Shown here in pieces: positions 24,914-42,323 of a stretch of DNA of 57,875 nucleotides; position 1 is the stretch's first letter; each line of letters starts with the position of its first letter. Both the position numbers and the translations under genes were made by a program. This DNA comes from an archaeon. Its GTDB lineage: Archaea > B1Sed10-29 > JAJSAI01. The stretch is taken from the NCBI GenBank assembly GCA_024274695.1, contig JAJSAI010000014.1:1-57875 (forward strand). Reading direction: 5' to 3'. The notes beneath the pieces were generated by a model that saw only the letters and a program-made list of their open reading frames with translations, searched no databases and had not been told where the DNA came from.

Positions 24914-24931
24914 GGTCTTCCCACCATCCTT

Positions 24932-25276: not shown

Positions 25277-25608
25277 GATAACAGCCAGTCCACAAACCTT
25301 TTGGTCAGGTTTCCTACAAGATTTCCAGTTGTTTTGCCCGCCTCCTTCCATCTGGTCGGAGGCTTTCCGGGCTCTGTTATTGTTATTTCTTCAGGGTAAA
25401 TGGACTCTGGTCCTTCGTACTTTCTTTTTACGATTATGGGCTGCACTTTCACCCTGGCCCCAGACCCTTTAGATTTTTTGGCAGGCTCTCTTGACACGAG
25501 CACCAGGATGGCTGCTGCTATTACTGCCGGGACGAGCACGCTCTCAACGTAGATGCCTGCGAGCACGAGCACCATGGCAAGGGCGAGCGTGCTTGCTCTC
25601 ATGTTCAT
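25273..25608 (-). CDS. Small 2-TM membrane protein, paralog 3 of 3
   Basis: 111 aa. TM hairpin, then SREPAKKSKGSG, then QPIIVKRKYEGPESIYPEEITITEPGK, then an amphipathic tail. ATGA overlap with the upstream gene. Confidence 0.6.
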   Translation of the reverse strand: MNMRASTLALAMVLVLAGIYVESVLVPAVIAAAILVLVSREPAKKSKGSGARVKVQPIIVKRKYEGPESIYPEEITITEPGKPPTRWKEAGKTTGNLVGNLTKRFVDWLLS

Positions 25609-25895
25609 CCTCCCAGGAGCCTCATGAGCTCAGGGGAGTAGTACTCTCCCCCTCCTTTCTCGCTCTTGGCCGCGCCGTACAATATTATTCCGGCTAGTAT
25701 TCCCAGGAAGATCCACCAGTACTTGGAGTACCCGAAGTAGACCATCGCGAGCACTAGCACTCCTATGACCGTTATTGGAACGCTTCTGGCGAGCACGATC
25801 AGGACAATGAACGTCAGGTAAAACAGGGTTTCCAGCCCCTGCTGTAGCGCGAGGAAGGACACGAGCAACAGTATTATCAGGCTCATGGGGTCCAT
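25605..25895 (-). CDS. Small 3-TM membrane protein, hypothetical
   Basis: 96 aa, almost entirely hydrophobic, with the tail AAKSEKGGGEYYSPELMRLLGG. Confidence 0.55.
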   Translation of the reverse strand: MDPMSLIILLLVSFLALQQGLETLFYLTFIVLIVLARSVPITVIGVLVLAMVYFGYSKYWWIFLGILAGIILYGAAKSEKGGGEYYSPELMRLLGG

Positions 25896-25904
25896 GATAT
25901 CATC

Positions 25905-26129
25905 TCACTTGAACGCTTCTCCGAACTTTTCAAGGAAAGGGTATCCGAAGAAGAATATCAGGATTATTATCACGAGCTCGGGGTGAGAGTAGAAGGTGAG
26001 GTATCCTACTATAGCTGCGAGAATGATCCCCAAGGCCTTTGATTTTGTCAGGTCAGTCCCCCACTTTACTAGGTACACGAAGAATATGAGCGTGAAAGCC
26101 AGCCTCAGGTCAGTCCAAAGGTCCGCCAT
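25905..26129 (-). CDS. Small 2-TM membrane protein, hypothetical
   Basis: 74 aa. On the minus strand it is preceded by a TATA-like CCTTTTTATACC and GGAGG elements within 26130-26198. Confidence 0.55.
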   Translation of the reverse strand: MADLWTDLRLAFTLIFFVYLVKWGTDLTKSKALGIILAAIVGYLTFYSHPELVIIILIFFFGYPFLEKFGEAFK

Positions 26130-27015: not shown

Positions 27016-27369
27016 TCAGAATTTCTTGAACCGGGGGCTTGCCCAGAAGCCCTGCAGTCCGAAGATTATCATTCCCGAGAGCATGTAGGCCATGATGATG
27101 TAGGTGGTCCACACTCCTGCTGTTACCGGCAGGAGCCTTATACCAAAAATGTAAAAGAGGATCGCTGTTATGAGGTAGGTGGTGAGCCTGGTTCCTATCA
27201 CCATTCTCACGAAACTGTAGATCATGACCAGGATGTAGAACTGGAAGAGTATCCTGAATATGGGGATTGTTAGGATGGCGACGGTCATTCCCCCGATTAT
27301 CACCAGGAAGATGAGGGCCAGGATTATGAACGGGAGTATGAAAAAGCCCCTGCTTTTTTCCAGGATCAT
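27016..27369 (-). CDS. Polytopic (about 4 TM) small membrane protein, hypothetical
   Basis: 117 aa. 4-nt overlap with the upstream gene. Confidence 0.55.
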   Translation of the reverse strand: MILEKSRGFFILPFIILALIFLVIIGGMTVAILTIPIFRILFQFYILVMIYSFVRMVIGTRLTTYLITAILFYIFGIRLLPVTAGVWTTYIIMAYMLSGMIIFGLQGFWASPRFKKF

Positions 27370-27749
27370 CTTAGCAACGCCCTCCTCCTGCTCGCCGCTG
27401 ACTTGGCCGTGTCAGGAGGCAGGTCCCCTCCTCCTGCGCTGGCCATCGGTCCCGCGATAGACAGGTCGTACAATACCATGGTGAACCCAAAGGCTATGGC
27501 GAAGTACACTATCATCAGGGGTCCGAACAAGTGCCAGTACTGGAAGAGCATCAGGTACCCTAGTATGAGCACTAACGCGGTGATTATCGGGCCTCCTTCG
27601 AACCTGCTCCTGACGAAGGAGATCACGAACAAGAGCACGATTATCTTGAACCCGAACCACATCAAGTCCCAGTCGCTCTTCACTCCGGCCAGTGTCAAGA
27701 ACCTGTCCAGTATCCCCAGTACAGCCAGGACCGTCACGTTACTGATCAT
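27366..27749 (-). CDS. Polytopic (about 4 TM) small membrane protein, hypothetical
   Basis: 127 aa with an Arg-rich C-terminus (AASRRRALLR). Confidence 0.55.
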   Translation of the reverse strand: MISNVTVLAVLGILDRFLTLAGVKSDWDLMWFGFKIIVLLFVISFVRSRFEGGPIITALVLILGYLMLFQYWHLFGPLMIVYFAIAFGFTMVLYDLSIAGPMASAGGGDLPPDTAKSAASRRRALLR

Positions 27750-27797: not shown

Positions 27798-28766
27798 TCA
27801 TGTGGAAGATTTTACCAGAGAGCCGCTCTCGTCACAATAGTACGTGGACGTGGTTTTGCCCAGTTCAGTGTCAAGAGCGGTTAGCGTTACCTTGTCCTTC
27901 CAGCCTGTTATCTTGAACTCCTCTCCTCCATGCTTTTTGAAGAAGGCTTCCATCTCATACCATACTATATCATGGTGCTCGGGTTTAGGCACGTACACTC
28001 CGCTCTCGTCTGTGACCCACGTGAAGCCAGCGAACTTTTTTACCGCGTGGGCGGTCACCTTAAGCTCTGACAGGCCATTCGGTCCGCTGGGACAGTGTTT
28101 CCCTTCAAGCCCTCCTCCGAGCTCTTCCCTTATTCCCTCCGCCCATTCGGCCCACGCCCTGACTGGATCCGGAGTGCAGACCGTAATATCGTTCTCTGGT
28201 AGTACGCCTATCTTCTCGTACCCGTCAGGAGTCGGTATCTTCATCCAAACGTCTTTCCTTATGTCGTCGAACTGGCTGGAGTCTAGGGTGATGCACACTC
28301 GTCCGTCAGGGTGTTCCTCCTTGAAGAGGTCCTTTGAAACGCTGTGAATAGCATTGCTTATCTCCGTGTCATCAGGGGTTTCCGGCTCGCTCCCCTTGAA
28401 CACGAACGTCTTCCGCGTGGCGTCCACTGCGTTCACGACCGCTTCTGATGTCATCAGGCTAATCTCTTTTGAAACCCGCGCCTCCAGGGCGCCGAGTATG
28501 TCACTCTTTCCTTCCAGAGGGCTCTCCTCTATCTCCATTACTCGGGCCTTGACCGCGTTCTGTGTTTCCGCCTCCACGTTCGCCTTGACCACCTTGATGT
28601 TAATGTAGTCAGTTGAGGTTATCGAGCTTCCGGCCAGCGCTCTGGACGTCCGGAGGTCATTTTCTGCCATCATGCTGGCCGCGAGAATAGCCAGGATCAC
28701 CATGGTGGTGCCAACCAAAGGGGTGAATAAAGAAAAGCCCCTGTTCCTTTTCCGTGCGAAGGACAT
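27798..28766 (-). CDS. Class-III-signal (type IV pilin-like) secreted protein, 322 aa
   Basis: The N-terminus MSFARKRNRG|FSLFTPLVGTTMVILAILAASMM has a basic leader, a Gly, then a hydrophobic helix. Its ATG overlaps the giant gene's stop (TAATG). Confidence 0.65.
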   Translation of the reverse strand: MSFARKRNRGFSLFTPLVGTTMVILAILAASMMAENDLRTSRALAGSSITSTDYINIKVVKANVEAETQNAVKARVMEIEESPLEGKSDILGALEARVSKEISLMTSEAVVNAVDATRKTFVFKGSEPETPDDTEISNAIHSVSKDLFKEEHPDGRVCITLDSSQFDDIRKDVWMKIPTPDGYEKIGVLPENDITVCTPDPVRAWAEWAEGIREELGGGLEGKHCPSGPNGLSELKVTAHAVKKFAGFTWVTDESGVYVPKPEHHDIVWYEMEAFFKKHGGEEFKITGWKDKVTLTALDTELGKTTSTYYCDESGSLVKSST

Positions 28767-31700
28767 TAGTCTTCACTCTCTGACTGAGCGCTTACATACT
28801 CCTGGTAATGCTCGTAGTCAGCATTAGGCCCTTTTGTCACGCACCAACCCTCTTTAGTTGCAAGACCCCCTTCACAGTACAAGCATGAGCCTTTAGAGTT
28901 TTGCGCCAGGCATGTCCAGCTACAATAGCCGTTTGCCTTGTTCACGCACAGGGCTTCATCTGGACACTTAAGAGTTACTTTCTCAGTATCGCACAGCTTC
29001 CAGTTGGATAACCCGTGGCAGATGACCTTGTATCCGCAGTTTTCTCCAGATCCCGATTCTGAAGGGCCCTTCTTTTCCGCACCAGTCACAGTATAATAAC
29101 TACCCCATGGAGATATTGTGTAGGTTATGGTCCCCCCTGAATCTTCAGAACCCATGATCACGTTTACTCTCAGGTTTCCGAGGCCAATGGGTAGAGATAT
29201 AGTGGTACCATCTGAGGGGAAGGAGCCTCCCTTGATCTTTAGGTGAATGTACGGAACAAACCCTTTCGGGCTGAACTTTAGAGTTTCGGTGGAGGACCAG
29301 ATTGTTTTGGTTTCTACACCTACTGTGATCTCAGTGCCCTCTGCTTGCAAGGGAATAATATCTATCTCATCTGCGAACACGTTGAGTGGAACATAACAAT
29401 CTAGTGCAATATGCTTTTTATCCTCGCCAGTGTATCTCATGTTACCGCAAAAGGCAGCGCACTTTCCGTAGAATACTCTTTTATCATTCTCTCCAGCAGG
29501 ACTGGGAGCATCTTTTACTACAAGGTTCTTGTTGGAGATCTTGATCAGTTTTCTTCCTGCAGTCATACCATTTATTGTGTCAAGGGTGTTCTGTTGAATG
29601 CCTTTCATTGTGGTAGGGGTGGATGGGATCTCGCATGCTTGGATTCCAGGGGCTGATGAGAGATACAGTGCTATCGTCTTATGTTCGCTGGTCGTGGTAT
29701 AGTACAAAACTTTCGCAAGCGTCTTATAGTCTCCTTCCTTGAATTCCATTATCACCTTCCCGAGGTCGTTGTCCGCAACGGTGGTTATGCTGTTGTCCTG
29801 GCCGCTGCCGAGCCGTTCGCTCAGCAGGCTGGATATCTTACTTTCCTTGCCTTGGGGTATTGACAGGTACACGTGGTTTGCTGTCTCCCAGTATACCGCA
29901 GTGTCTTCTGGCAGGGTCCAGCCAGCCTTCTCGCTGACAGCGGCCTTGAAGTTCAGTATCTCCGAGTACTCTCCAACCTGTTCTGGGGTGAAGTCTGACG
30001 GTCTCCCGATAATAATGTACGGCCAGGAGACTTCCTCAGGAGAGCTCCTGTAGACTACTCTCACCTGGTCTTCTCCGACTTCTTCCCCTTCCTCCACAAC
30101 ATCCTTGCCGGTTTTCTCGTGGATTATGTTCCTTATCTGGGCCTTCTCGTCTTCTGACAGGCTTGTTCCCAGCAAGTTGAGCACTTCGTAGTCTGTTCTG
30201 GAGGTTATCCACTTCCCGTCACGTATTTCCAGAACCTCATTTCCTTTGGAGAAGCGGATTATGTTATCAATGAACTCTTTCACGCTGTCCAGCGTTGGCC
30301 CGACAATATGCAGGTAGTTGTTCTTGTCAAGGTACGCGAGCCCTGCCGCCGGGAACCTGTTCTCGAGCTCGGGCACGTTCTCCCAGAGGTCCTGGCACGC
30401 CTGCTGTGTTTCGTCGAAGCATGTTTCTATTATCAGGTTGTGAGTGTACTCCTCGTCTCCCAGGACGCTCCTGGAGTAGGATACGCTGTAGCCTTCTTTT
30501 TCTCCAACGCCCCACAGAGCGTTCATGAGCTTGTGGACCTCTTCCTCTATTGACTTCCCTGTCGTTATCACCACCCGGGTCTGGTATACGGACGGCCGCT
30601 TCTCCGCAATGCTGCTGGCGTCCGCAGGTATGAACGCGAGGAAGTTCTCAAGCTTTTCCTTCGGATTCATGTCCGAGAGTTTTCCTGTCTCGTAGTACCT
30701 TAGTTTTTTAGTGGTCCCTTCCGCGGTCTGGTAGTTCGTGGTCTTCACGGTCCCGTATCCTATCTCAGGCCAGAAGTCTGTGAACACTTCGTCGTCTAAT
30801 CCTAATGTGTTCACCGCGATGTACATTTCGTCTTTGTTGAGTTTGTAGTACACGCTCCTGAACGCCTGGTTCGGTGTTTTGGCTCCCGTGAGTATCTGGG
30901 CGAGGGTCGCGAAAGCGTCAGGGTCAAAAGTTTCCCCTTTCTTCAGGGTCTTTGAGAAGTCTGCTGAGATAACTTCAACTCCTCCCGCGGGGGCTGCTGC
31001 TTCTTCTTGTACTGTGGCCTTGTACTCTATGGGGACTTTCTTGGTGATCCCGTTCTTTTCTGCAGTGAACTCTCCTTTCACGTCAATGTTCGTGTTTGTT
31101 GACGGGAACGGCGCGTACAATGTTATGCTCGCGCTGAACGTTATCTGGGACTCGTCTGACTCTACCTTTACGTTCTCCGCGCTGCATCTCCACGCTCCGG
31201 ACGCGAGGCAGTCCGCGGTTCCCTCGTCAGAGGACACTTCCGCTTTGAGCACGCTGGCTCCTGACACGCTCACGCCATCGCACCTGTTGTTGAGGATGAT
31301 GCTGACGTCGTTCTTTTGGCTTATTATCAGGGTATTGTCTTCAGAGTCCAGCCGGTCTGGGTAGCAGGCTTTGATCTTCATTGGCACGGTCACTGGCTTG
31401 TCAAAGTAGGGTTGTCCCGCGATCCTCTCGTCAGACTCTATAATCATTTGAGCGTTCTGGTCCTGGTCTAAGAGTTCCTTCCAGGGGAAGTCCCTTCTTT
31501 CGTTAGATAGCAGGCACAGCCCCAGGTCCAGTTTTATCCCGTTTTCCGAGTCTGTTATCCCTCCCTCCACGCTCTTGTCCAGGGTGCAGACGGTTTCTCC
31601 TGCCTGGGTGATTTCAATTCTCTTGATGTACTTGGATGTTAGGATTGTGTTCGTGTTGAGGTCCTTGAGCGGCACTGTCACTTCTGGAGTGAACTCGTCA

Positions 31701-34700
31701 ATGTCTATTTCTTCCGGCGACTGGACTTTCATGAACCCGCCTACTGGCGCGGACATGCTGGCGAGGGAGTGTTCTTCTGATCCTGTCGTTACTTTCAGCT
31801 CGTACCCCATCTTGCCGTAGAACGTGGCCTTGACAGGGATGCTGATGCTCGCCTGCTGGAACTTGTCTCCGGCTATCTCCAGAACAACGTCCTCCGGGCT
31901 ATTTCCTTGGGCTGGCTCGCAGGCGGTAGCCTCAGGAGACACTGAACAGGACGCTGCGCTTCTGCTGACCGCATTCTCTTCTCCAGAGTATTCCAGGGAG
32001 ATCTTGTCCGGCACGAGTGGGACATCTCCTTTTTTAATCAAGCTGATGTCCAGCGTGGCTTCTTCTCCTATCTTGAGCGCGCAGGCGCCCGGCTGGCTGG
32101 GGTTGCAGATGTTCCCGTCCTCGTCTGTCATGCTCGTGCTCCAGCACAAGGGCACTTCTTCTGAGCACTTGTAGTCCTTGGTCCACGGGGATATTGGCAC
32201 GGTGACATCCAGGCTCCTGCCGCCGACGCTCACGTTCAGGGTGTCTGTTTCGGGTATGAACCCGTAGAGTCCCAGGTTGATCACGAGACTGTCCCCGTAC
32301 GCGATTCCCTTGTAGTCTTTGACGGTAGCCTGGCGGTAGGTCCCCTGGCCGTTACTGTAGTCCGTCCCAAGAGTGTACTCAAGTTTTGCTCCGCGTTCTT
32401 CTCCTGAGTGGAGAACTGCTTTTGCAGAATCTCCTGCTCCCTTAACAAGCCTGAAGTAACCTTCCTGCGTGCTGATTCTCACTGTGTCCGAGAGTGTGTC
32501 CGTGCCGTAGTAGGATAGCACTATCTGGTATTTTCCTGTCCTGCCCTCTTCTAAGCGTATGTTGGCAGGTTCTTTTGCTTCCCACTCCATTTCAACAGCA
32601 GGTGCTTCAGAGTAAGTTATGTGGTCTGCGGTGTACTTTGTGCGCTCTGTGCACTTGTACGTTTTTTCGACCTCGCATCCCATGCTTTCAAGGTATTCTG
32701 GCAGGGAGTCGTAGCAGGAGAAAGCCAACATTACCTGTTTTCCTGGGCAAGAGAGAGAATAGTAGTGCCCCTCTTTTGTTGTTTTTGTCAGGGACTTTGG
32801 CTTGTTGAGTACTATCGTCTGCCCTCCGTTCTTCTCCTGTGCCAGCTTCAGCGTCCCGTCACACTTTATCATGAGCGCGATTTTCCCTTTCTCGTCTGGC
32901 GTCACCTTCCCCACGTCATTGAAAGAAAGAACCCCGTCTTCTGCGGTCAGCGTTTTCTGTTCTCTGAATTCAAGGGTTATCCGAGCTTCTTTCGTTATTT
33001 CCAGCGTGTCATCCTTCCATTCCACTTTTTTGTCCTGGTAGGAGTAAGAGTACCATTTTTTGACCGTGCCTATTCTCACTGTCGCTTTTCCAGCACAGCT
33101 CCCGCTTATTTCAAGCTTATTCAGGCTGAAGCTGGTCTTGGATGGGGAGTCTGTCACTATCACCACAGGGTTTGATAAGGTGTTCTTGTACTCTTTCTCC
33201 ACGGGGCTTCCTGTTCCGGAAGTCTTGTATTCTCCTGAGCCCTTCAGCCTATACACTTCCAGGCACACCTTCTGGTCTTCCGAGCAGGTTTCTGGCCTGG
33301 GTGCTTTCTCAACGTTCAGGTAGACCCTGTCTATGATGTTCTCTCCGTTGCCCAGGGTTATTGAGAGTTTTCCCTTGCCGTTGTAGTACCCTTTCCCGAC
33401 GGCGACTGCTACCACGTCCCCGGAGTATATTATGTGGTAGTTCCACTTCTGCTTGTTCTCTGTGTACGCGACAACGTTGTCGTTTCCTGTGGCGGTGTCA
33501 ACGTCAAAGTGCGTGCCGCTGCTGGACTCCTCTTTTATTGTTATTGTCTTACCCTCCAGTTCAGTGTCTGCTCCGGGCATTTGTTTGACCAGGTATGTCA
33601 GGGTGAATGGCTTCATGAACCCGACGTCGGGGATCTTTTTCCAGTAGTAGTCTTTCCCGTCTACTGTTATTGTAGCGTATTCCATTATTCCCGCGTTCTG
33701 GTTGCACACCATGGTTCCCTTTTCCCAGTCTTCTTCGGTGTACTCCTCTTCCGGCTTGCACTGGGTCTTGTCCGTGGTGATGATGACCTGCTTTTGGCTG
33801 TCGCCAGAGCCGGGCTTGACGTGGATGTACTGGTGGTACGCTCCCTTCTGGGCGGGGGTGAGCGCGTGGAGTTTCATGGTGATCGTCAGACTCTTGAAGG
33901 GCCTTAGCCCGTAGTCTGATTCAGTAGCGCCCGGGCAGTATCTTGAGATAATGTACTTGTTCCCTGTTCTCGTCACGGCGTGCGCGGTGGTTTCTCCTTC
34001 GCACTTGTACTTCACCTCGTTTACCCTGAGCAGGTTGCCTTCTCCTGAAACGCTCAGGCTGATGTCCTTGTTGTACGTTTCTGGTTTTTCGTTCACTACG
34101 GTCACGACAGCGGTCGCGTCCTCTCCTGGGGACAGTTGTACTGGGCTGGACAGTGGTCTGTTCTCAGAGTCGAACAGTGACCATATCACAGTGAGCCCTT
34201 CTCCTGGCAGGTACGTGCCCTCCCCGTTGTATGCTGTGATCTTAAATTCTTTTTCTCCTTCTCCCGGGTCTCTGACTGTCACCTGCGGCTTTTGCCATGA
34301 CCCGTGGTACCTGATGACGAGCTCCTTGCTCTCGCTTCCTTTCCAGTGCCTCACGTACACGGGGATCCTGACCTGTTTGACCGCGCTCTCCTGAGGCTGT
34401 GAATCAATTATCCTGATCTTGTTATCTCCAGCGTCGTACTCGTACTCTTGTTCTGCCTGGACAGAGATCATCTCGTCAGGAAGCTTTAGTTCTATGCTCG
34501 TGTTCTTGTACTCCTGCAGCAGCCCGTACGAGACCACAAGATAGTACCATTTTCCTGCGGTCAGTTTGTCCTGCGTTTCTCCGGAGGAGAACTCAAGGCC
34601 CATGACGTTCACTGATGCGTTGGGTCTTGTCAGGGTGATGTTGAGGGTCTTGTCAGTGTCCATTACCACTCCTGGGAGCATGGTGTAGTACGTTTCCTTT

Positions 34701-36466
34701 GTTTCAGGATCAACGTACTTTGCGTCCACGTCCACGACGGTGTCCTTTCTTATGAGCCCTTCAAAAAAGGCTACTCCTGCAGCGTTGGTCTCCTGTTCAG
34801 TCCGGTCGAGCCATTTTGATTCCACGGAGACCTTCGCTCCTTTCACCCTTTCTCCGGACGGGCTGGACACTACCACCATAATGTTTACTTTCTCTGACTC
34901 CATCCTGACCTGAAGGTACGCTTGCTTTCCTGCTTCTACGGTCACTGTGGTTTCGGAAGAGCATGGGGTCATGCTCTTTCCTTTGACTGCTTCCACGCAG
35001 TAGTCTCCTGGCTCCACCCACGGGAACACCGCGTGGCCGTAGGAGTCGGTCGTCTGGTCTGGAGCAGCCCATTCTTCTGGCTTGTTGTTCTCGAGCCTGT
35101 AGAGCTTTAGGTCCACTCCGTCAGCATAGGACCCGTCCTCGTAGAACACGTCCACCGCCAGGCTACCGTAGTCGTTGGGGTTCAGGCGTGTGAGCTCCAC
35201 AACGTTCTCTCCGCCCACTGTAACGTTAGCCTCTTTCACCTCGTACAAGTACTTGTAGAACATTGCGGTGTACTCTTCTCCTTTCTTCAGCCCCACCGTG
35301 CTCCTGCCGTTCGCGTTGGTCTCTGCTTCCAAGAACTTTACCCTGTTCCTGTCGAACACCTTGTAGTGCACGTTGGGCAGCGCGGCCACTTCGCCTGCTT
35401 TTTTGGTGATGAAAGTGGTGCTTTCAGCGTCTTCAAGGGTCACGTTCAGGGACAGGCTTCTAACGCTCTCGTTCAGCTCGTACGTTAGGTTGCTCTTGTA
35501 GTACAGGTAGTCCTCGCTCAGGACCCCTATCCTGAAAGGAGAGTACAGGGGGTAGTCCATGCACGCTGTCCCGTCCCTCGTGCGCGCGACCTTCTTGGTG
35601 CTCCCGCTGTGCGCGTCGTACAATTCCACTGAGACAGCGTATGGGACCACCTTCTGGTCAGGAGAGTAAACGGTAACGCACACGCTTCCCATTTCCTTCG
35701 GGGTCCTCTCCTGCTTCTCTAGTTTCAGGCATTCTGTGGACTGGCCTGCTCTCGTGAGATCCTCCCACGTGACGCCCTTAAGGTAGTACTCGTCCGCCCC
35801 GTATACTGCCCTGAAGGAGTACGTGTGGTCCTTCACGGCGGTGAGCGTGCACGAGGTCCCAGTGCATTCCCCTGTTTTTACCTTGTAACCGTACCCTGAG
35901 TACTCAGTGTAAGTGACGTTGGGGAGGAAAACCTTTCCTTCAGAGTCCTGGACGCAGAAGGTCACCTGCGATGCAGCGGGCTTGATGCCCTGACAGTTCA
36001 GCGTTATCGTGTAAGGTTGGGCCTGCTGCCCCTGCACGGTTATTTCTTCTTCCGCGTCCTCGCAGTTCTCTACTTCTGCAACTTTGACAGTGTACGTTCC
36101 AGGAAGAACGTTAAGAGAAAGCAGTCCGTCAGCGTCAGTGTACCCTCCGTCAACAGGATTGTCCTCTTGGTCGAATAACTGCACTTTCGCGTTGGGTATG
36201 CTGGCCCCCGTATTGCTCACGACGCTTATGGATATTGGCACGGGCTGGGGGCCTGCTCCTCCAAGGCCTCCTACTATTCCGGCAGTAAAGTATACTACCA
36301 GCATTAGCACGGCGGCAAAAACGGGCAGTGAAGGGATCCCGTGCTTTTCTATCGGGTCAACAAGCTTGTACACTGGGACTCCTTTTCCGTCCATCCAGTC
36401 AAGCAGGTCGAACCAGCGGTCTTCAACCGCGTAATAAGCATTGAGCAGGGTGTCTGCAAAACCCAT
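28766..36466 (-). CDS. Giant (2566 aa) N-terminally anchored surface protein with repeated beta-sandwich domains and a Cys-rich C-terminal module
   Basis: Uninterrupted 7.7-kb ORF. A cytoplasmic N-region of about 46 aa is followed by a TM helix (LPVFAAVLMLVVYFTAGIVGG). At least 5 CarboxypepD_reg/PEGA-like repeats follow (e.g. IPNAKVQLFDQEDNPVDGGYTDADGLLSLNVLPGTYTVKV). The last ~100 aa contain 12 Cys. Confidence 0.85.
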   Translation of the reverse strand: MGFADTLLNAYYAVEDRWFDLLDWMDGKGVPVYKLVDPIEKHGIPSLPVFAAVLMLVVYFTAGIVGGLGGAGPQPVPISISVVSNTGASIPNAKVQLFDQEDNPVDGGYTDADGLLSLNVLPGTYTVKVAEVENCEDAEEEITVQGQQAQPYTITLNCQGIKPAASQVTFCVQDSEGKVFLPNVTYTEYSGYGYKVKTGECTGTSCTLTAVKDHTYSFRAVYGADEYYLKGVTWEDLTRAGQSTECLKLEKQERTPKEMGSVCVTVYSPDQKVVPYAVSVELYDAHSGSTKKVARTRDGTACMDYPLYSPFRIGVLSEDYLYYKSNLTYELNESVRSLSLNVTLEDAESTTFITKKAGEVAALPNVHYKVFDRNRVKFLEAETNANGRSTVGLKKGEEYTAMFYKYLYEVKEANVTVGGENVVELTRLNPNDYGSLAVDVFYEDGSYADGVDLKLYRLENNKPEEWAAPDQTTDSYGHAVFPWVEPGDYCVEAVKGKSMTPCSSETTVTVEAGKQAYLQVRMESEKVNIMVVVSSPSGERVKGAKVSVESKWLDRTEQETNAAGVAFFEGLIRKDTVVDVDAKYVDPETKETYYTMLPGVVMDTDKTLNITLTRPNASVNVMGLEFSSGETQDKLTAGKWYYLVVSYGLLQEYKNTSIELKLPDEMISVQAEQEYEYDAGDNKIRIIDSQPQESAVKQVRIPVYVRHWKGSESKELVIRYHGSWQKPQVTVRDPGEGEKEFKITAYNGEGTYLPGEGLTVIWSLFDSENRPLSSPVQLSPGEDATAVVTVVNEKPETYNKDISLSVSGEGNLLRVNEVKYKCEGETTAHAVTRTGNKYIISRYCPGATESDYGLRPFKSLTITMKLHALTPAQKGAYHQYIHVKPGSGDSQKQVIITTDKTQCKPEEEYTEEDWEKGTMVCNQNAGIMEYATITVDGKDYYWKKIPDVGFMKPFTLTYLVKQMPGADTELEGKTITIKEESSSGTHFDVDTATGNDNVVAYTENKQKWNYHIIYSGDVVAVAVGKGYYNGKGKLSITLGNGENIIDRVYLNVEKAPRPETCSEDQKVCLEVYRLKGSGEYKTSGTGSPVEKEYKNTLSNPVVIVTDSPSKTSFSLNKLEISGSCAGKATVRIGTVKKWYSYSYQDKKVEWKDDTLEITKEARITLEFREQKTLTAEDGVLSFNDVGKVTPDEKGKIALMIKCDGTLKLAQEKNGGQTIVLNKPKSLTKTTKEGHYYSLSCPGKQVMLAFSCYDSLPEYLESMGCEVEKTYKCTERTKYTADHITYSEAPAVEMEWEAKEPANIRLEEGRTGKYQIVLSYYGTDTLSDTVRISTQEGYFRLVKGAGDSAKAVLHSGEERGAKLEYTLGTDYSNGQGTYRQATVKDYKGIAYGDSLVINLGLYGFIPETDTLNVSVGGRSLDVTVPISPWTKDYKCSEEVPLCWSTSMTDEDGNICNPSQPGACALKIGEEATLDISLIKKGDVPLVPDKISLEYSGEENAVSRSAASCSVSPEATACEPAQGNSPEDVVLEIAGDKFQQASISIPVKATFYGKMGYELKVTTGSEEHSLASMSAPVGGFMKVQSPEEIDIDEFTPEVTVPLKDLNTNTILTSKYIKRIEITQAGETVCTLDKSVEGGITDSENGIKLDLGLCLLSNERRDFPWKELLDQDQNAQMIIESDERIAGQPYFDKPVTVPMKIKACYPDRLDSEDNTLIISQKNDVSIILNNRCDGVSVSGASVLKAEVSSDEGTADCLASGAWRCSAENVKVESDESQITFSASITLYAPFPSTNTNIDVKGEFTAEKNGITKKVPIEYKATVQEEAAAPAGGVEVISADFSKTLKKGETFDPDAFATLAQILTGAKTPNQAFRSVYYKLNKDEMYIAVNTLGLDDEVFTDFWPEIGYGTVKTTNYQTAEGTTKKLRYYETGKLSDMNPKEKLENFLAFIPADASSIAEKRPSVYQTRVVITTGKSIEEEVHKLMNALWGVGEKEGYSVSYSRSVLGDEEYTHNLIIETCFDETQQACQDLWENVPELENRFPAAGLAYLDKNNYLHIVGPTLDSVKEFIDNIIRFSKGNEVLEIRDGKWITSRTDYEVLNLLGTSLSEDEKAQIRNIIHEKTGKDVVEEGEEVGEDQVRVVYRSSPEEVSWPYIIIGRPSDFTPEQVGEYSEILNFKAAVSEKAGWTLPEDTAVYWETANHVYLSIPQGKESKISSLLSERLGSGQDNSITTVADNDLGKVIMEFKEGDYKTLAKVLYYTTTSEHKTIALYLSSAPGIQACEIPSTPTTMKGIQQNTLDTINGMTAGRKLIKISNKNLVVKDAPSPAGENDKRVFYGKCAAFCGNMRYTGEDKKHIALDCYVPLNVFADEIDIIPLQAEGTEITVGVETKTIWSSTETLKFSPKGFVPYIHLKIKGGSFPSDGTTISLPIGLGNLRVNVIMGSEDSGGTITYTISPWGSYYTVTGAEKKGPSESGSGENCGYKVICHGLSNWKLCDTEKVTLKCPDEALCVNKANGYCSWTCLAQNSKGSCLYCEGGLATKEGWCVTKGPNADYEHYQEYVSAQSESED

Positions 36467-36500
36467 AAGATCACCGCTCTAAAGGAAATAAAGGGGGAAG

Positions 36501-36513
36501 AATATTTATATTA
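36501..36513 (-). promoter_or_regulatory. TATA-like AATATAAATATT upstream of the giant gene
   Basis: About 40 nt upstream of the ATG at 36466, with the SD-like GGTGATC 3 nt before the ATG. It overlaps the stop of the archaeosortase-like gene. Confidence 0.35.
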
Positions 36514-37050
36514 CTTTCCTAACCCTTTCCACGCTTTCGCAAGCCCCCGGAACACTCTTCCTCCCAGCACGTACCATGCGTAGTAGTATCCTGCGATCGT
36601 GCCCAGCAAGGTGGCCCTGAAGAACAGGTCGTGAACAAGGTCCGCTGTTCCTAGCCCGTGGGAAAAGGCAGACCATAACACGATCCAGATCCTGACAGGA
36701 TTTACGACCGCCACCAGCAGTAGCCCCAGCAGCACTCCCGCGAGCCTGTTCCTCCTGCTCCTGTCAGGGGTCGCGAGCACCGCGGCGACCACTACCGCGA
36801 TCTCCACGTTACCCGCGCACAAGTCGTTCACTTCTGCTCTCAGCCCGCCAGCGGTCACCACGGGATCTTCTCCTGAGAGGACGCACGAGCTAGGCACTCC
36901 GACACTGTTGAGTAGGCTGCTGGCAGCGCACGCTGAGAAGGCTTTTAAAGGGTAAAGGCCTGTTATTCCCAGAAACGCCCACACGGCTGCCGCGATGGCA
37001 AGCACTCTCGCCGTGAAAACGGCAGCGTCCCGGAGCTCTCGCGATCGCAT
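36511..37050 (-). CDS. Minimal exosortase/archaeosortase-family protein (ArtE-like size, 179 aa)
   Basis: About 5 TM helices. Family-type motifs: DLC(78)AGN, then VVN(117)PVR(120)IWIV 42 residues later, then DLVH(140)DLFF. C-to-R spacing and context match the conserved Cys/Arg core of the family. Confidence 0.65.
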   Translation of the reverse strand: MRSRELRDAAVFTARVLAIAAAVWAFLGITGLYPLKAFSACAASSLLNSVGVPSSCVLSGEDPVVTAGGLRAEVNDLCAGNVEIAVVVAAVLATPDRSRRNRLAGVLLGLLLVAVVNPVRIWIVLWSAFSHGLGTADLVHDLFFRATLLGTIAGYYYAWYVLGGRVFRGLAKAWKGLGK

Positions 37051-37083: not shown

Positions 37084-39363
37084 GTGGTGGAGTACACCAT
37101 CAGGACAGAAGGAGGGAAAAGATACCTTGTAATAAACTACAAGGGCAGGCCAATAGGCCCTAGTGTCGTGGACTACCCCCAGTGCATGAAAGAAGTGATA
37201 GAACTTCTTGAGAAGACTGACGCGGATTACGTGGTCCTGTCAGACGTTTACGAGATAACCTATGATGAAGAACAGACCAAGATGCTCAAGGAAATTGCTG
37301 ACGTTGCGAAACTCTTTTTCAAGCAGGGGGTCTGGAACCCCAGCAAGCTCGTTAACAACAAGGCCTGCGAGGACATGATCCCGAGCAGGTACAACACGGT
37401 CCTCTCAATAGCCCAGGGACTCCTGAAGCAGGACCCGATAAAAGCGTACGTGACTCTGATTAACGTGATAAAAAGAGAAGAGTCTTCCCTTGAGACCCTG
37501 CGGTCTCCCAGGAGGGAGTGCACCGAACACTACCTCAGAACCTTGTACGCCATGAGGGACGAGCTTGAGAAAACGACACTGATCAAAAAGTTTGTTGAGC
37601 TCGCGAGCAAGACAGGAATAAAAAAGATAACAAGAGAGGTCTACCGGCCGTTTTTTGAGGCCCAGATAAAGCCTGCTTTTGTTTCCAGTAGGGTCTTCTT
37701 CTACACTCCTCCTGAGGTCGTGCTGGTTGACCAGTACCAGGTGGCTGATGCGACCGTTAGTATTTACCAGCATCCTGAGAGGATAAACCTGTTGTACTAC
37801 CTGAACCCTCCTGAGTACTCCCTCACGCCCGAAAAGTACTTCCTGCTGTCCAAGACAAGAGAGATAGTCTCCACGTATCATCCGAAGGGAATAAGGTTCA
37901 TGAGCCCGAGGGAGGTCAAGGAATACTTCACCAGCGTGTACGAGACCACCATCCGGGACCTGGCGGACAGGCACAAGATCACGATAACGCCCGAGGAAAT
38001 AGAACAGCTTGCAAGGATCGTCACCAGGTACACTGTGGGGTACGGCATGATGGAGCTCCTGCTGTCCGACAGGAAGCTGACGGACGTGTACATGGACGCT
38101 CCCCTCGGCACGAAACCAGTTTACGTGGTGCACGGGGAGTACGGCACGTGCGAGACAAACGTGCTGTTCACAGAAGAAGAGGCCAAGGGAATAATTTCAA
38201 GGTTCAGGGCACAGTCAGGAAGGCCTTTTGACGAGGCCCACCCCGTGCTGGACTATGACATTCCTGACCTACAGACAAGGGTCGCGGTGATAGGCCCTCC
38301 GCTGTCCCCTGACGGGGTGGCGTTCGCCCTCAGGCTCCACAAGCTAACCCCCTGGACCCTCCCCCAGTTCATTGACGTGAAAATGCTTAACGCGGACACC
38401 GCAGGGCTATTGTCCTTTCTTATAGAAGCCCAGGCGAGCACGCTCGTGAACGGGTCAAGGGGCTCTGGTAAGACCAGCCTGCTGATGAGCCTCATGCTCG
38501 AGCTCCTGCCCTCCCTGAGGATAATCGTGCAAGAAGACACTCTAGAGATCCCTGTCCCTTACATGAAAAGGATAGGGTATAACATACAGCGGCTGAAAAC
38601 ACAGTCCGCGATAGCCGTGAGCAGGACCAGTGCTGAAGTGCCTCCTGAGGAAGCCCTGAGGACCGCGCTCAGGCTGGGGGACTCCGTGCTCGTGATAGGA
38701 GAGGTCAGGTCGAACGAGGCGAAGGTCTTGTACGAGGCAATGAGGGTGGGGGCCATCGGGAACGTGGTCATGGGAACCATCCACGGAGAAAACGCTTACT
38801 CTGTCTGGGACAGGATCGTGAACGACCTCGGGGTCCCTAACACGAGCTTCAAGGCCACTGACGTGATAGTCACGGCCGCGCCCATCCGGTTCGGAGGCTC
38901 TCTGAAGAGGCACAGGAGAGTGATAGAAATAACAGAGGTCAAGAAGCACTGGTACGAGGACCCTGAAAAAGAAGGCGGCCTGCTCACGCTCCTGAAGTTC
39001 GACGCCAAGAGGGACACACAGTATTACGTGAAAGAAGCTTTCGAGGAATCAGAGCTGTTGAAGAGAATAGAGGAAAGGTGGGGTGTTGACCGGGAGTTCC
39101 TGATGAACGAGATAAGGGCAAGGGCCCAGGCGAAACAGTTCCTCGTGGACCAGAAAAGAAAGCACAACATCCCTGACCTGCTAGAGGGAGAGTACACCGT
39201 GCCGGCCAACAACATGTACAGGATAATACAAGAGAGGCAGAGGACAGAGCTCGGCAGCGTGGACCACAAGAAACTCCTGCAAGAATGGAAGAAGTGGGTG
39301 CTCGAGGCCCAGGTCAAGCCTCTCATAAGGGTGAGCAAGAGTGCCGAGAAAAAGAAGGCATAA
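37084..39363 (+). CDS. Type IV pilus/archaellum-family assembly ATPase (FlaI/PilB/VirB11 superfamily), 759 aa
   Basis: Walker A NGSRGSGKTSLL, IIVQEDTLEI, VLVIGEVRSNEAKVLYEAMRVGAIGNVVMGTIHGENA (Asp and His boxes). It has a long N-terminal extension. GTG start with GGAGG 9 nt upstream. Confidence 0.85.
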   Translation: MVEYTIRTEGGKRYLVINYKGRPIGPSVVDYPQCMKEVIELLEKTDADYVVLSDVYEITYDEEQTKMLKEIADVAKLFFKQGVWNPSKLVNNKACEDMIPSRYNTVLSIAQGLLKQDPIKAYVTLINVIKREESSLETLRSPRRECTEHYLRTLYAMRDELEKTTLIKKFVELASKTGIKKITREVYRPFFEAQIKPAFVSSRVFFYTPPEVVLVDQYQVADATVSIYQHPERINLLYYLNPPEYSLTPEKYFLLSKTREIVSTYHPKGIRFMSPREVKEYFTSVYETTIRDLADRHKITITPEEIEQLARIVTRYTVGYGMMELLLSDRKLTDVYMDAPLGTKPVYVVHGEYGTCETNVLFTEEEAKGIISRFRAQSGRPFDEAHPVLDYDIPDLQTRVAVIGPPLSPDGVAFALRLHKLTPWTLPQFIDVKMLNADTAGLLSFLIEAQASTLVNGSRGSGKTSLLMSLMLELLPSLRIIVQEDTLEIPVPYMKRIGYNIQRLKTQSAIAVSRTSAEVPPEEALRTALRLGDSVLVIGEVRSNEAKVLYEAMRVGAIGNVVMGTIHGENAYSVWDRIVNDLGVPNTSFKATDVIVTAAPIRFGGSLKRHRRVIEITEVKKHWYEDPEKEGGLLTLLKFDAKRDTQYYVKEAFEESELLKRIEERWGVDREFLMNEIRARAQAKQFLVDQKRKHNIPDLLEGEYTVPANNMYRIIQERQRTELGSVDHKKLLQEWKKWVLEAQVKPLIRVSKSAEKKKA

Positions 39364-41813: not shown

Positions 41814-41829
41814 CACCGGGACAGAAACC

Positions 41830-41837
41830 TTTTAAAA
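41830..41837 (+). promoter_or_regulatory. Internal TATA box TTTTAAAA ahead of pilin gene 41869
   Basis: About 35 nt upstream of the start, in the only sizeable gap of the pilin cluster. Confidence 0.35.
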
Positions 41838-41868
41838 CCACACGCGCCTTTCTCTCTTCGGGTGATGC

Positions 41869-42291: not shown

Positions 42292-42323
42292 GTCAGCGAG
42301 GCCAGCTCGTGAGATGATCTCGG

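What the first reader, a model, noticed from the sequence alone, without database searches (positions are those of the whole stretch)
28766..36466. 2566-aa giant surface protein with unusual topology: cytoplasmic N-module plus single TM anchor, beta-sandwich repeats, and a 12-Cys terminal knob
This is a single uninterrupted 7.7-kb ORF. It has no cleavable signal peptide. Instead, a 46-aa hydrophilic N-module (MGFADTLLNAYYAVEDRWFDLLDWMDGKGVPVYKLVDPIEKHG) precedes one TM helix, implying an N-in, C-out type II anchor. Residues about 80-600 (nt about 36229-34669) hold at least five CarboxypepD_reg/PEGA-like repeats. The remaining ~1900 aa have no family I can name. The last ~100 aa (nt about 28769-29100) contain 12 Cys, which suggests a disulfide-stabilised distal domain. 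That is where a ligand or host-binding tip would sit on a long stalk. The gene has its own TATA-like element and an SD-like GGTGATC.
Basis: partly seen in the sequence, partly recalled or inferred. Interest (0 to 1): 0.7.

Follow-up and report, generated by a model that had tools for sequence, protein, structure and literature searches.

The report
Membrane-anchored giant surface protein of DPANN archaeon
This is a real 2566-residue gene from a tiny symbiotic (DPANN, Micrarchaeota-type) archaeon, most likely a membrane-anchored cell-surface fibre, and its 70-residue start belongs to an undescribed signature found on hundreds of similar giant proteins that usually sit next to a pilin-like gene.

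Summary
The 7.7-kb ORF (28766..36466, minus strand) is real and intact. An independent metagenome holds a collinear 2810-aa homologue in the same gene order.

The N-terminus is not a one-off. A profile of residues 1-72 finds 852 protein clusters. The match is almost always at residues 1-70, and most complete-looking hits are 1500-3600 aa. The genomes that could be named are DPANN archaea (Micrarchaeota, Iainarchaeum). Neither Pfam nor NCBIfam has a model for this module.

AlphaFold (pLDDT 92.5) predicts two short helices, a near-invariant [IVL]PS[LF]P motif, one membrane helix and then a CnaB/transthyretin-like beta-sandwich. Charge bias, a 22-35-residue uncharged stretch, a single hydrophobic segment and paired cysteines all favour an uncleaved N-in/C-out anchor.

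After 4-7 beta-sandwich units, about 1900 aa are lineage-specific. They could not be modelled.

The gene lies in a conserved ~28-kb locus. It also encodes a FlaI/TadA-like ATPase, a platform protein, six pilins, an archaeosortase-like enzyme and a second, C-terminally anchored giant. A pilin-like gene adjoins such giants in at least 16 of 30 loci.

Best reading: a fast-evolving host-contact or adhesion fibre. This is inferred, not shown.

The parts
28766..36466 (-). Giant gene, 2566 aa plus stop
   Evidence: ORF list and translation. A collinear homologue, P0002 (2810 aa), sits in a syntenic locus from another sample.
36338..36466 (-). N-module, residues 1-43. Predicted helices at 3-27 and 32-41. 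Near-invariant residues Y11, E15, D23, Y33, D37, E40.
   Evidence: A profile search finds 852 clusters, with the match at residues 1-70. AlphaFold pLDDT is 92.5. No Pfam or NCBIfam hit appears even at E<=10.
36323..36337 (-). IPSLP motif, residues 44-48, directly before the membrane helix. Family pattern is [IVL]P[ST][LFM]P.
   Evidence: IPSFP 53, IPSLP 32, IPTFP 10. P45 is 98% and P48 is 92% conserved.
36257..36331 (-). Single membrane helix, residues 46-70, then a Gly-rich linker
   Evidence: Hydropathy scan. AlphaFold helix 46-70. Family median uncharged stretch is 28 residues.
34508..36241 (-). Membrane-proximal stalk, residues 76-653: 4 solid and up to 3 marginal CnaB/transthyretin-like (CarboxypepD_reg) beta-sandwich units
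   Evidence: Pfam. Family profile. AlphaFold plus Foldseek match CnaB2, the carboxypeptidase D TTL domain, SlaB, UafA and BcpA.
29057..34507 (-). Lineage-specific region, residues 654-2470. It has no nameable family. Cysteines occur mostly in close pairs. Residues about 1830-2270 look mixed alpha/beta.
   Evidence: No family or PDB hits. Beyond about residue 850 only P0002 is homologous, at 23-25% identity. A search with the last 786 aa found nothing. The AlphaFold model was unusable, pLDDT 32.7.
28841..29038 (-). C-terminal knob: 10 cysteines in 66 residues (2477-2542)
   Evidence: Cysteine positions. Cysteines align with the knob of P0002. A weak EGF-like hit has E=0.15.
28769..28840 (-). 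Acidic, Tyr-rich soluble tail, residues 2543-2566. It has no membrane segment and no basic cluster.
   Evidence: Translation.
36469..36510 (-). 44-bp intergenic leader holding TATAAATATT (36501-36510) and GGTGATC (36469-36475)
   Evidence: Direct reading. Presence only; function was not tested.
27798..28766 (-). Pilin-like partner, 322 aa. Its N-terminus is MSFARKRNRG/FSLFTPLVGTTMVILAILAASMMA. Its ATG overlaps the giant's TAA (TAATG).
   Evidence: A gene with the same N-terminus adjoins an N-module giant in at least 16 of 30 loci.
27016..27749 (-). Two small multi-pass membrane proteins (127 and 117 aa), conserved in the locus
   Evidence: They are 76% and 92% identical to their L001 counterparts.
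36511..37050 (-). Archaeosortase/exosortase-family protein, 179 aa, directly upstream of the giant
   Evidence: TIGR04178 scores 34.9 bits against a cut-off of 23. Pfam Exosortase_EpsH gives E=1.3e-5. Cys, Arg and His motifs are invariant in 8 orthologues.
37084..41413 (+). Divergently transcribed FlaI/TadA-like secretion ATPase (759 aa) and T2SSF/TadC-like platform protein (690 aa)
   Evidence: Orthologues occur in 8 loci that carry N-module giants.
41415..44598 (+). Six small pilin-like genes with class III-type N-termini (RKGQ/RGQ followed by a hydrophobic helix)
   Evidence: Translations. They are 46-74% identical to their L001 counterparts.
44595..50263 (-). Second giant (1601 aa; Sec-type signal; C-terminal LPSIPPGTAG, membrane helix, RRRED) and a 288-aa protein that also ends in a membrane helix plus RSRRRRK. 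These are the likely substrates of the archaeosortase-like enzyme.
   Evidence: A sub-threshold VPEID-CTERM hit has E=0.016.

Best explanation
The gene encodes a giant cell-surface fibre of a DPANN (Micrarchaeota-type) archaeon.

**How it is built**
- It is held in the cytoplasmic membrane by one uncleaved N-terminal helix (type II, N-in/C-out).
- A conserved 43-residue two-helix module stays in the cytoplasm.
- Outside the cell, 4-7 rigid CnaB/transthyretin-like beta-sandwiches form a conserved membrane-proximal stalk.
- The stalk carries about 1900 residues of fast-evolving, disulfide-stabilised, lineage-specific domains. These end in a 10-cysteine knob.

**What it probably does**
- The distal part most likely contacts the surface of a host or neighbouring cell.
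- It probably acts together with its co-translated pilin-like partner and with the type IV pilus-like machine encoded next to it.
- The cytoplasmic module is most likely a docking or biogenesis handle specific to these giants.

**Shown versus inferred**
- Shown: gene integrity, domain layout, conservation of the N-module and its restriction to giant proteins, DPANN distribution, synteny, and the gradient of divergence.
- Inferred: topology, lack of cleavage, adhesion or host contact, and any role of the N-module.
For: **Integrity.** The homologue is collinear and the locus is syntenic.

**N-module family.**
- 852 clusters match; 87 of the top 152 are at least 1500 aa; the match is always N-terminal.
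- The window and P0002 are 74% identical in the module against 36% in the next 1100 aa.

**Organism.** Of the 25 loci found by the genome scan, 24 come from Micrarchaeota, Iainarchaeum or unclassified archaeal genomes.

**Topology.**
- Charge bias and a 22-35-residue uncharged stretch.
- One hydrophobic segment in 81 of 87 giants.
- AlphaFold predicts helix, helix, membrane helix, then beta-sandwich at pLDDT 92.5.
- Extracellular-type folds only: CarboxypepD_reg in 18 of 19 relatives, plus SpaA, Big_1, SdrD_B and Invasin_D3, with no recognised enzyme domain. Foldseek hits are adhesin or pilin stalk domains and SlaB.
- 50 cysteines, mostly paired.

**Fast-evolving surface role.** Machinery genes are 68-92% identical between the window and L001. 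The giant is 36% identical and its pilin-like partner 31%. Identity falls from 36% to 23% to undetectable along the protein.

**Link to pili.**
- The giant's stop overlaps the start of a pilin-like gene.
- That gene pair recurs in at least 16 of 30 loci.
- An ATPase, platform protein and pilins lie in 8 loci.

**Literature.** DPANN type IV pilus islands with surface proteins, and large adhesin-like proteins in archaeal pilus loci, have been described (PMC6393860, PMC4858521, PMC5498576).
Against: - There is no experimental or predictor-based topology. DeepTMHMM and SignalP were not available.
- The N-module is net acidic (median -3). Acidic N-tails can be translocated, so charge alone does not exclude N-out.
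- No binding domain, lectin or enzyme is recognisable in the distal 1900 aa, and that region could not be modelled. 'Adhesion' therefore rests on architecture, context and evolutionary rate.
- The host and its surface are unknown.
- Most N-module giants in Iainarchaeum-type loci have no ATPase within the 10 kb upstream that was fetched. The tie to the pilus machine may be lineage-specific.
Confidence: 0.6

Rival explanations
1. It is a structural envelope component rather than a host adhesin. The N-anchored beta-sandwich stalk would act as a spacer or pillar, in the manner of Sulfolobus SlaB. It would hold or decorate the S-layer and define the pseudo-periplasm.
For: - Foldseek lists SlaB (8qox_B) among the hits for the first beta-sandwich.
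- The stalk is the conserved part of the family.
- Genomes often carry two such giants in tandem.
Against: - The Micrarchaeota S-layer protein described so far is a different, ~101-kDa, very abundant protein with S-layer domains (bioRxiv 10.1101/2021.04.28.441871). No S-layer family hit was found here.
- A lattice component would be expected to be conserved. Here the distal three quarters are essentially unique to the lineage.
Confidence: 0.15
2. It is a giant modular pilin or pilus-tip adhesin. The N-module would be an unusually long class III leader. A prepilin peptidase would cut after G43 (…EKHG/IPSLP…). The freed hydrophobic helix would then be built into a filament by the neighbouring ATPase and platform, together with the pilin-like partner.
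For: - The gene sits in a type IV pilus-like locus and is coupled to a pilin-like gene.
- The pair recurs widely.
- Gly is at -1 in 83 of 128 relatives, with K or R at -2 or -3 in most.
- A hydrophobic helix follows directly.
Against: - The leader is 40+ residues and is the best-conserved part of the protein. Class III leaders are short and poorly conserved (own knowledge).
- Position -1 is Asn in 41 of 128 relatives. Known prepilin peptidases need a small residue there (own knowledge; not tested here).
- Prolines at +2 and +5 would break the start of a pilin helix.
- The true pilins of the locus use a different site (RKGQ, or RG/FSLF).
Confidence: 0.12
3. The N-terminal region is a long, atypical Sec signal. 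It would be removed after the membrane helix, in the Gly-rich linker, so the giant would be released or held only by partners.
For: Small residues (G, A) follow the helix in many relatives.
Against: - The uncharged stretch has a median of 28 residues (22-35), well above a cleavable signal core.
- The linker has no conserved small-x-small site and varies in length.
- Strong conservation of a 43-residue pre-helix module is hard to explain for a peptide that is discarded.
Confidence: 0.06
4. The neighbouring archaeosortase-like enzyme processes the giant through its N-terminal '[IVL]PS[LF]P + membrane helix' signal. This would be an inverted or internal version of the usual C-terminal sorting signal.
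For: - The enzyme gene lies directly upstream of the giant or of the partner-giant pair in 8 loci.
- Its catalytic Cys, Arg and His are intact.
- The second giant's C-terminal signal carries a similar LPS[IV]P motif before its helix.
- ArtA can process a tripartite signal that is not at the C-terminus (J Bacteriol 2017, title as listed in the reference list of PMC6098224).
Against: - With N-in topology the motif faces the cytoplasm, while sortase-type active sites act on the outer face.
- No basic cluster follows the helix.
- The locus already has two conventional candidate substrates.
- Most N-module giants outside this lineage have no such enzyme gene in the 10 kb upstream that was fetched.
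Confidence: 0.05
5. It is an assembly or gene-calling artefact, such as a chimeric or frameshift-fused ORF.
For: None was found. Read mapping could not be done.
Against: - The homologue from a different sample is collinear from Met1 to the C-terminal Cys knob and lies in the same gene order.
- Composition is even across the ORF.
- Giant size is the norm for the family.
Confidence: 0.02

Closest known systems
Large adhesin-like and S-layer-like proteins encoded in archaeal type IV pilus loci, including DPANN pilus islands (Makarova, Koonin, Albers 2016, PMC4858521; Makarova, Wolf, Koonin 2019, PMC6393860)
   Same: - A giant secreted or membrane protein lies beside a FlaI/TadA-type ATPase, a TadC-like platform and several fast-evolving pilins.
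- Cysteine-rich components are present.
- A role at the pilus or cell surface is proposed in both cases.
   Different: - The described large proteins carry DUF2341 (PilY-like), or a Sec signal, or a C-terminal anchor.
- This one has none of these. It has a conserved N-terminal cytoplasmic module plus signal anchor.
- Term searches of those two papers and the literature searches turned up no mention of it. Pfam and NCBIfam have no model for it.
Gram-positive stalk adhesins and sortase pilins built from CnaB/prealbumin-like domains (SdrD B repeats, UafA, BcpA, EbpB)
   Same: - Tandem beta-sandwich units of the same fold form a stalk that projects a distal binding region.
   Different: - Those proteins are anchored at the C-terminus by sortase to peptidoglycan and have cleaved N-terminal signals.
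- This protein is anchored at the N-terminus by a membrane helix in an archaeon without a cell wall.
- Isopeptide bonds were not assessed.
Giant surface proteins of other DPANN archaea: SPEARE proteins of Nanohaloarchaeota (own knowledge, Hamm et al. 2019) and the large PKD/YVTN/CARDB surface proteins and LamG proteins of 'Ca. Mancarchaeum' Mia14 (PMC5498576)
   Same: - Very large, lineage-specific surface proteins take up a percent-scale share of a ~1-Mb genome.
- They are proposed to mediate host contact. Some are linked to type IV pilus loci.
   Different: - No protease, nuclease, LamG, PKD, YVTN or CARDB domain was detected here or in 18 relatives.
- The defining N-module is absent from those descriptions.
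Extended signal peptide region (ESPR) of giant autotransporters and the YSIRK-G/S motif of Gram-positive surface proteins (own knowledge)
   Same: - A conserved N-terminal extension precedes the hydrophobic segment.
- It is found preferentially on very large surface proteins. This suggests a role in targeting or in pacing export.
   Different: - There is no sequence relationship.
- ESPR and YSIRK belong to cleaved signal peptides in bacteria.
- This module is longer (about 43 aa), predicted to be helical, rich in invariant acidic and Tyr residues, and probably retained.
PilN/GspL-type bitopic pilus-machine proteins with a short conserved cytoplasmic N-peptide before one membrane helix (own knowledge)
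   Same: - The layout is the same: a conserved cytoplasmic N-peptide, one helix and an external domain.
- Such N-peptides dock onto a cytoplasmic machine component.
   Different: - Those proteins are small (about 200 aa) and have no sequence similarity to this one.
- No partner for this module has been identified.

Membership tests
CarboxypepD_reg / transthyretin-like (CnaB-like) beta-sandwich, PF13620 | The HMM score reaches Pfam's gathering threshold | tested here: met
   59.4 bits against a cut-off of 32.3, at residues 78-156. 18 of 19 relatives also match.
CarboxypepD_reg / transthyretin-like (CnaB-like) beta-sandwich, PF13620 | Seven-stranded beta-sandwich fold | tested here: met
   AlphaFold predicts 7 strands at 76-156 with pLDDT above 90. 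Foldseek matches CnaB2, the carboxypeptidase D/N/M TTL domain and SpyCatcher, with TM-score normalised to the target 0.7-0.76.
Type IV pilin-like proteins (class III signal peptide) | Short, basic, poorly conserved leader (usually under 30 aa) | tested here: not met
   The leader would be 43 aa, net acidic, and the best-conserved part of the protein.
Type IV pilin-like proteins (class III signal peptide) | Small residue (G, A or S) at -1 and K or R at -2 or -3 across the family | tested here: inconclusive
   Position -1 is G in 83 and N in 41 of 128 relatives. Position -2 is R or K in 68. Position -3 is K in 50. The window protein has K-H-G.
Type IV pilin-like proteins (class III signal peptide) | Cleavage by a prepilin peptidase and assembly into a filament | not testable with these tools
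   This needs proteomics or an in vitro cleavage assay.
Archaeosortase/exosortase substrates (PGF-CTERM, PEP-CTERM and relatives) | C-terminal tripartite signal: short motif, membrane helix, basic cluster | tested here: not met
   The giant ends in a soluble acidic tail, …YEHYQEYVSAQSESED. It was not among the two window ORFs with such a tail.
Archaeosortase/exosortase family (the neighbouring gene 36511..37050) | TIGR04178 signature above the cut-off, and conserved Cys, Arg and His | tested here: met
   34.9 bits against a cut-off of 23. LC[AV]G, N..R[IV] and H…FR are invariant in 8 orthologues. No named subfamily (ArtA-E, XrtX and others) reaches its cut-off.
Cleavable Sec (class I) signal peptide | Hydrophobic core of roughly 7-15 residues followed by a small-x-small cleavage site | tested here: not met
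   The uncharged stretch has a median of 28 residues, range 22-35. No conserved site appears in the variable Gly-rich linker. No dedicated predictor was run.
Type II (N-in/C-out) signal-anchor membrane protein | Single N-terminal membrane helix whose more positive flank is on the N-side | tested here: met
   One hydrophobic segment. K+R is 1.70 before against 0.58 after, and net charge is -0.46 against -1.54. The orientation itself was not shown experimentally.
SPEARE-type DPANN giants | Serine protease, adhesion and restriction-endonuclease domains | tested here: not met
   No protease or nuclease family was found in the giant or in 18 relatives.
Archaeal S-layer proteins (TIGR01564/TIGR01567-type domains, as in the Micrarchaeota SLP) | An S-layer domain is detectable by NCBIfam or Pfam | tested here: not met
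   No such hit was found.

The most novel reading that the evidence does not exclude
The 43-residue N-module plus the [IVL]PS[LF]P motif would be a previously unrecognised, DPANN-wide sorting or assembly signal dedicated to giant surface proteins. It would be a cytoplasmic handle, with invariant Tyr, Glu and Asp residues, that docks each giant onto a pilin-like partner and a type IV pilus-type ATPase and platform. Alternatively, it would present the giant to the archaeosortase-like enzyme. Under either version these fibres would be inserted, positioned or extruded by a dedicated machine rather than by Sec alone. That would be a new way for the smallest archaea to build their host-contact apparatus.
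Probability: 0.2. Interest if true: 0.8.

Novelty: new variant of a known kind. Interest (0 to 1): 0.55.

Why it matters
DPANN archaea live attached to other archaea, and the molecules that make this contact are almost unknown.

- **A searchable signature.** This finding gives a simple sequence signature: Y-x3-E-D-K-x5-L-D-x-L-x3-G-x-P-x-Y-x3-D-x2-E-x3-I-P-S-[LF]-P followed by a membrane helix. It picks out hundreds of giant candidate contact proteins in Micrarchaeota and Iainarchaeota.
- **A genetic link.** It ties these giants to a pilin-like partner gene. In one lineage it also ties them to a complete pilus-like locus with an archaeosortase-like enzyme.
- **Testable in culture.** Antibodies, cryo-ET labelling and proteomics could be aimed at family members in Micrarchaeota co-cultures (Ca. 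Micrarchaeum harzensis, Mia14, ARM-1), if they encode any. This was not checked.
- **Host range.** The conserved cytoplasmic module combined with a hypervariable exterior suggests a common biogenesis route that serves rapidly changing host-recognition tips. That bears on host range and on co-evolution between symbiont and host.

Tried and rejected
- **AlphaFold of residues 1800-2566** with the only homologue as alignment gave pLDDT 32.7 and pTM 0.22. The model is unusable, so no fold search was run on it.
- **Homologue search with the last 786 aa** returned nothing at E<=0.01.
- **Third homologue search, with the N-module profile,** returned only 8 short fragments. The exhaustive profile search was the informative one.
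- **phmmer of the whole protein against PDB** gave only chance-level hits, E about 0.6.
- **Self-BLAST** found no internal sequence repeats. The beta-sandwich units are too diverged and were seen only with a family profile.
It was repeated with 4 closer sequences.
- **Pfam and NCBIfam at E<=10** on the N-module and on the pilin-like N-terminus gave no family. The only hit was a meaningless N_methyl match at E=2.7.
- **Literature.** Seven papers were examined and five searches run. They contain general statements on DPANN surface proteins and pilus islands, but nothing on this N-module or on the giant-pilin pairing.
- **Polymorphic toxin with a C-terminal toxin domain** was considered and set aside, because no toxin or immunity family was detected.
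- **Mobile element or provirus** was considered and set aside. The flanks carry PolB, Nre, TYW2 and PEP synthase, and the locus is syntenic across genomes.

Full report

The window holds one uninterrupted ORF at 28766..36466 on the minus strand, encoding 2566 aa. Nothing longer than 184 aa is open on other frames inside it. Base composition is even across it.

Pfam places a CarboxypepD_reg domain at residues 78-156, scoring 59.4 bits against a cut-off of 32.3. Related beta-sandwich families (bMG3, SdrD_B, SpaA, MG4) give weaker hits, all before residue 600. NCBIfam and a sequence search of the PDB add nothing.

I built a profile from the first domain and its relatives. It matches the protein at these positions:

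| Residues | E-value | Strength |
|---|---|---|
| 79-156 | 1e-22 | solid |
| 361-422 | 5e-10 | solid |
| 438-522 | 4e-13 | solid |
| 531-591 | 2e-6 | solid |
| 173-205, 264-333, 609-653 | 0.21, 0.019, 0.079 | marginal |

That makes four solid and up to three marginal tandem units.

The hydropathy scan finds a single hydrophobic segment at about residues 42-72.

The 44-bp leader contains TATAAATATT at 36501-36510, directly after the upstream stop codon. It also contains GGTGATC at 36469-36475, two bases before the ATG. Both elements are present; their function was not tested.

The C-terminal knob has 10 cysteines (2477-2542), not 12. The whole protein has 50, mostly in close pairs.

**2. Is the gene intact?**

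The closest relative, P0002 (2810 aa), comes from a different metagenome. It aligns collinearly with the window protein:

| Window residues | P0002 residues | Identity |
|---|---|---|
| 1-1105 | 1-1096 | 36% |
| 1284-1651 | 1194-1564 | 25% |
| 1624-2269 | 1678-2395 | 23% |

Its C-terminal cysteine knob also aligns. It lies in the same gene order as the window protein. Mis-assembly or a frameshift fusion is therefore very unlikely, although reads could not be mapped.

**3. What the N-terminus really is**

All six homologues found first share the first ~70 residues. This holds even where the rest of the protein is unrelated.

I searched a profile of residues 1-72 against 1.84 billion representative proteins.
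- 852 clusters match at E<=0.001, and 241 at E<=1e-10.
- The match is nearly always at residues 1-70.
- 87 of the best 152 hits are 1500-3597 aa long. Most of the short ones look like contig-end fragments.

A scan of one genome per species returned 25 loci. Their genomes are named as Candidatus Micrarchaeota, Candidatus Iainarchaeum or unclassified archaea, with one Chloroflexi bin as the exception. The nearest is a Micrarchaeota MAG. The window's flanks (archaeal Nre, PolB, TYW2) agree with an archaeal chromosome.

Neither Pfam nor NCBIfam has a model for the module, even at E<=10. Five literature searches and seven papers gave no description of it.

Conservation within the module:
- Y11, E15, D23, Y33, D37, E40, P45 and P48 are each 92-98% conserved.
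- The motif [IVL]P[ST][LFM]P sits at about residue 41-48, directly before the membrane helix.

AlphaFold, run on a 45-sequence alignment, gives a confident model with pLDDT 92.5. It predicts helix 3-27, helix 32-41, a membrane helix at 46-70 and a seven-stranded sandwich at 76-156. Foldseek matches the sandwich to several known structures:
- CnaB2;
- the transthyretin-like domain of carboxypeptidases D, N and M;
- UafA;
- the BcpA and EbpB pilins;
- the S-layer stalk protein SlaB.

**4. Topology and processing (inferred)**

Several family-wide features point to an uncleaved N-in/C-out signal anchor.
- The 15 residues before the motif hold 1.70 K+R on average, against 0.58 after the helix. Net charge is -0.46 against -1.54.
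- The uncharged stretch has a median of 28 residues, range 22-35. That is typical of a stable anchor, not of a cleavable signal core.
- The linker after the helix is Gly-rich and variable, and shows no conserved cleavage site.
- 81 of 87 giants have exactly one hydrophobic segment.
- Every domain recognisable in 19 family members is an extracellular-type beta-sandwich: CarboxypepD_reg, SpaA, bMG3, Big_1, SdrD_B, PEGA or Invasin_D3.
- 59 of 87 giants have an even cysteine count.

Cleavage by a prepilin peptidase after G43 looks unlikely for the family as a whole.
- One third of members have Asn at that position.
- The would-be leader is long and is the most conserved part of the protein. The window and P0002 are 74% identical there, against 36% in the next 1100 residues.

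No dedicated topology predictor and no experiment was available, so this remains an inference.

**5. The rest of the protein**

Relatives share the stalk up to about residue 850. Beyond that, only P0002 is detectably related. A database search with the last 786 aa found nothing, and the AlphaFold model of that part is unusable at pLDDT 32.7.

The cysteine knob is shared with P0002, but it is rare in the family: 7 of 87 members.

**6. Genomic context**

The gene is part of a conserved locus of about 28 kb, from about 22228 to about 50718.

| Window position (strand) | Product | Evidence |
|---|---|---|
| 36511..37050 (-) | Archaeosortase/exosortase-family protein, 179 aa, directly upstream. TIGR04178 is above its cut-off. 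Cys, Arg and His are invariant in 8 orthologues. | |
| 37084..39363 (+) | FlaI/TadA-like ATPase, divergently transcribed | |
| 39341..41413 (+) | T2SSF/TadC-like platform protein | |
| 41415..44598 (+) | Six small pilin genes with RKGQ-type class III N-termini | |
| 27798..28766 (-) | 322-aa protein with a pilin-type N-terminus (…KRNRG/FSLFTPLVGT…). Its ATG overlaps the giant's TAA. | |
| 27016..27749 (-) | Two small multi-pass membrane proteins | |
| 24318..26129 (-) | A series of small membrane proteins | |

Comparison across loci:
- The same arrangement (ATPase, archaeosortase-like gene, pilin-like gene, N-module giant; the platform gene wherever the contig reaches it) recurs in L001 (L007 is the same record), L002, L003 (L004 carries the same locus), L008, L009, L011 and L012.
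- A pilin-like gene starting KGF[ST]LFT[PA]L… lies beside an N-module giant in at least 16 of 30 loci. These include Iainarchaeum-type loci with no ATPase in the fetched flank.
- Several loci carry two N-module giants in tandem.

Between the window and L001, divergence differs sharply by gene class:

| Gene class | Identity |
|---|---|
| Machinery genes | 68-92% |
| Pilins | 46-74% |
| Second giant | 42% |
| This giant | 36% |
| Pilin-like partner | 31% |

The giant and its partner are thus the fastest-evolving genes of the locus.

**7. The archaeosortase-like enzyme probably serves other proteins**

Only two ORFs in the window end in a motif, a membrane helix and a basic cluster.
- The second giant (44595..49400, 1601 aa) ends …LALPSIPPGTAG, membrane helix, REYARRRED.
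- The 288-aa protein upstream of it (49397..50263) ends in a membrane helix plus RSRRRRK.

The tail of the second giant is conserved in two orthologues. It weakly resembles an exosortase sorting domain, VPEID-CTERM, at E=0.016.

The 2566-aa giant ends in a soluble acidic tail, so it fails the definition of a sortase-type substrate.

The LPS[IV]P motif in that C-terminal signal resembles the [IVL]PS[LF]P motif in the N-module. I note this and cannot explain it. With N-in topology the N-module motif would face the cytoplasm.

**8. Most likely mechanism**

The protein is inserted as a type II membrane protein and keeps its N-module in the cytoplasm. Its beta-sandwich stalk projects a hypervariable, disulfide-stabilised distal region outward to contact other cells.

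In an ultrasmall DPANN archaeon the likely target is the host surface. The strict conservation of the cytoplasmic module, its near-exclusive occurrence on giants and the recurrent pilin-like neighbour suggest that it is a docking or biogenesis handle. The partner is unknown.

Rival readings are listed with their tests in the rivals section:
- an envelope pillar;
- a processed giant pilin;
- a cleaved signal;
- an N-terminal archaeosortase signal;
- an artefact.

**9. Comparison and novelty**

Large adhesin-like proteins in archaeal pilus loci, and giant surface proteins in DPANN, are known in general terms (PMC4858521, PMC6393860, PMC5498576). Tandem CnaB-like stalks are classic adhesin architecture.

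Three things are not described, as far as these tools can show:
- the conserved N-terminal cytoplasmic module plus anchor that defines a large DPANN family of giants;
- its pairing with a pilin-like gene;
- in this lineage, its place in a locus that also holds an archaeosortase-like enzyme and a second, C-anchored giant.

I rate it a new variant of a known kind, of moderate to good interest. The functional claims remain inferential.

Noticed in passing
window 44595..49400 (-), 49397..50263 (-), and 36511..37050 (-): A second giant (1601 aa) has a Sec-type signal and a conserved C-terminal tripartite signal: LPS[IV]P.G, a membrane helix and an Arg/Lys cluster. A 288-aa neighbour also ends in a membrane helix plus RSRRRRK. 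These are the only two such tails in the window. They are probably the substrates of the unclassified 179-aa archaeosortase-like enzyme, and may represent a new sorting-signal/sortase pair in Micrarchaeota.
   Followed up: partly
window 36323..36337 (-) compared with 44697..44711 (-) (C-terminal signal of the 1601-aa protein): The motif before the membrane helix is similar in both giants: IPSLP in the N-terminal anchor of one and LPSIP in the C-terminal sorting signal of the other. They are expected to lie on opposite faces of the membrane. This is unexplained and may be chance.
   Followed up: no
window 24318..25895 (-): Five small membrane proteins (83-139 aa) lie in a row. At least three are paralogues, with N-terminal membrane helices, a basic PEKK…GKK patch and a Pro/Tyr-rich tail. 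They are conserved in the syntenic loci (62-80% identical to L001). No family and no function is known for them.
   Followed up: partly
window 41415..44598 (+): Six pilin-like genes carry RKGQ/RGQ-type class III N-termini (Gln at +1, as in the EppA-dependent pilins of methanococci) and C-terminal cysteine pairs. No prepilin peptidase gene was recognised in the window.
   Followed up: partly
window 22228..23703 (-): A 491-aa protein with no family hit is conserved at the edge of the locus in L001-L004 (73% identical to L001). It has no obvious membrane segment at either end. It may be a cytoplasmic component of the system.
   Followed up: no
L005 10001..25892; L006 10001..22957; L008 3274..10852; L011 3292..12019; L012 9983..20198: N-module giants often come in tandem pairs. 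The second copy carries a more diverged N-module. Such a pair takes up a percent-scale share of a ~1-Mb genome.
   Followed up: partly
window 39341..39400 (+): The platform (T2SSF-like) protein starts with a very basic N-terminus, PRKRRHKKKER. The giant's cytoplasmic N-module is acidic and has four near-invariant Asp/Glu residues. This makes them a possible docking pair, but it was not tested.
   Followed up: no
L029 (JAFCCG010000009.1, labelled Chloroflexi bacterium MAG): One weak N-module match (31% identity, E=1e-8) lies in a bin labelled as bacterial. It is probably a mis-binned archaeal contig.
   Followed up: no
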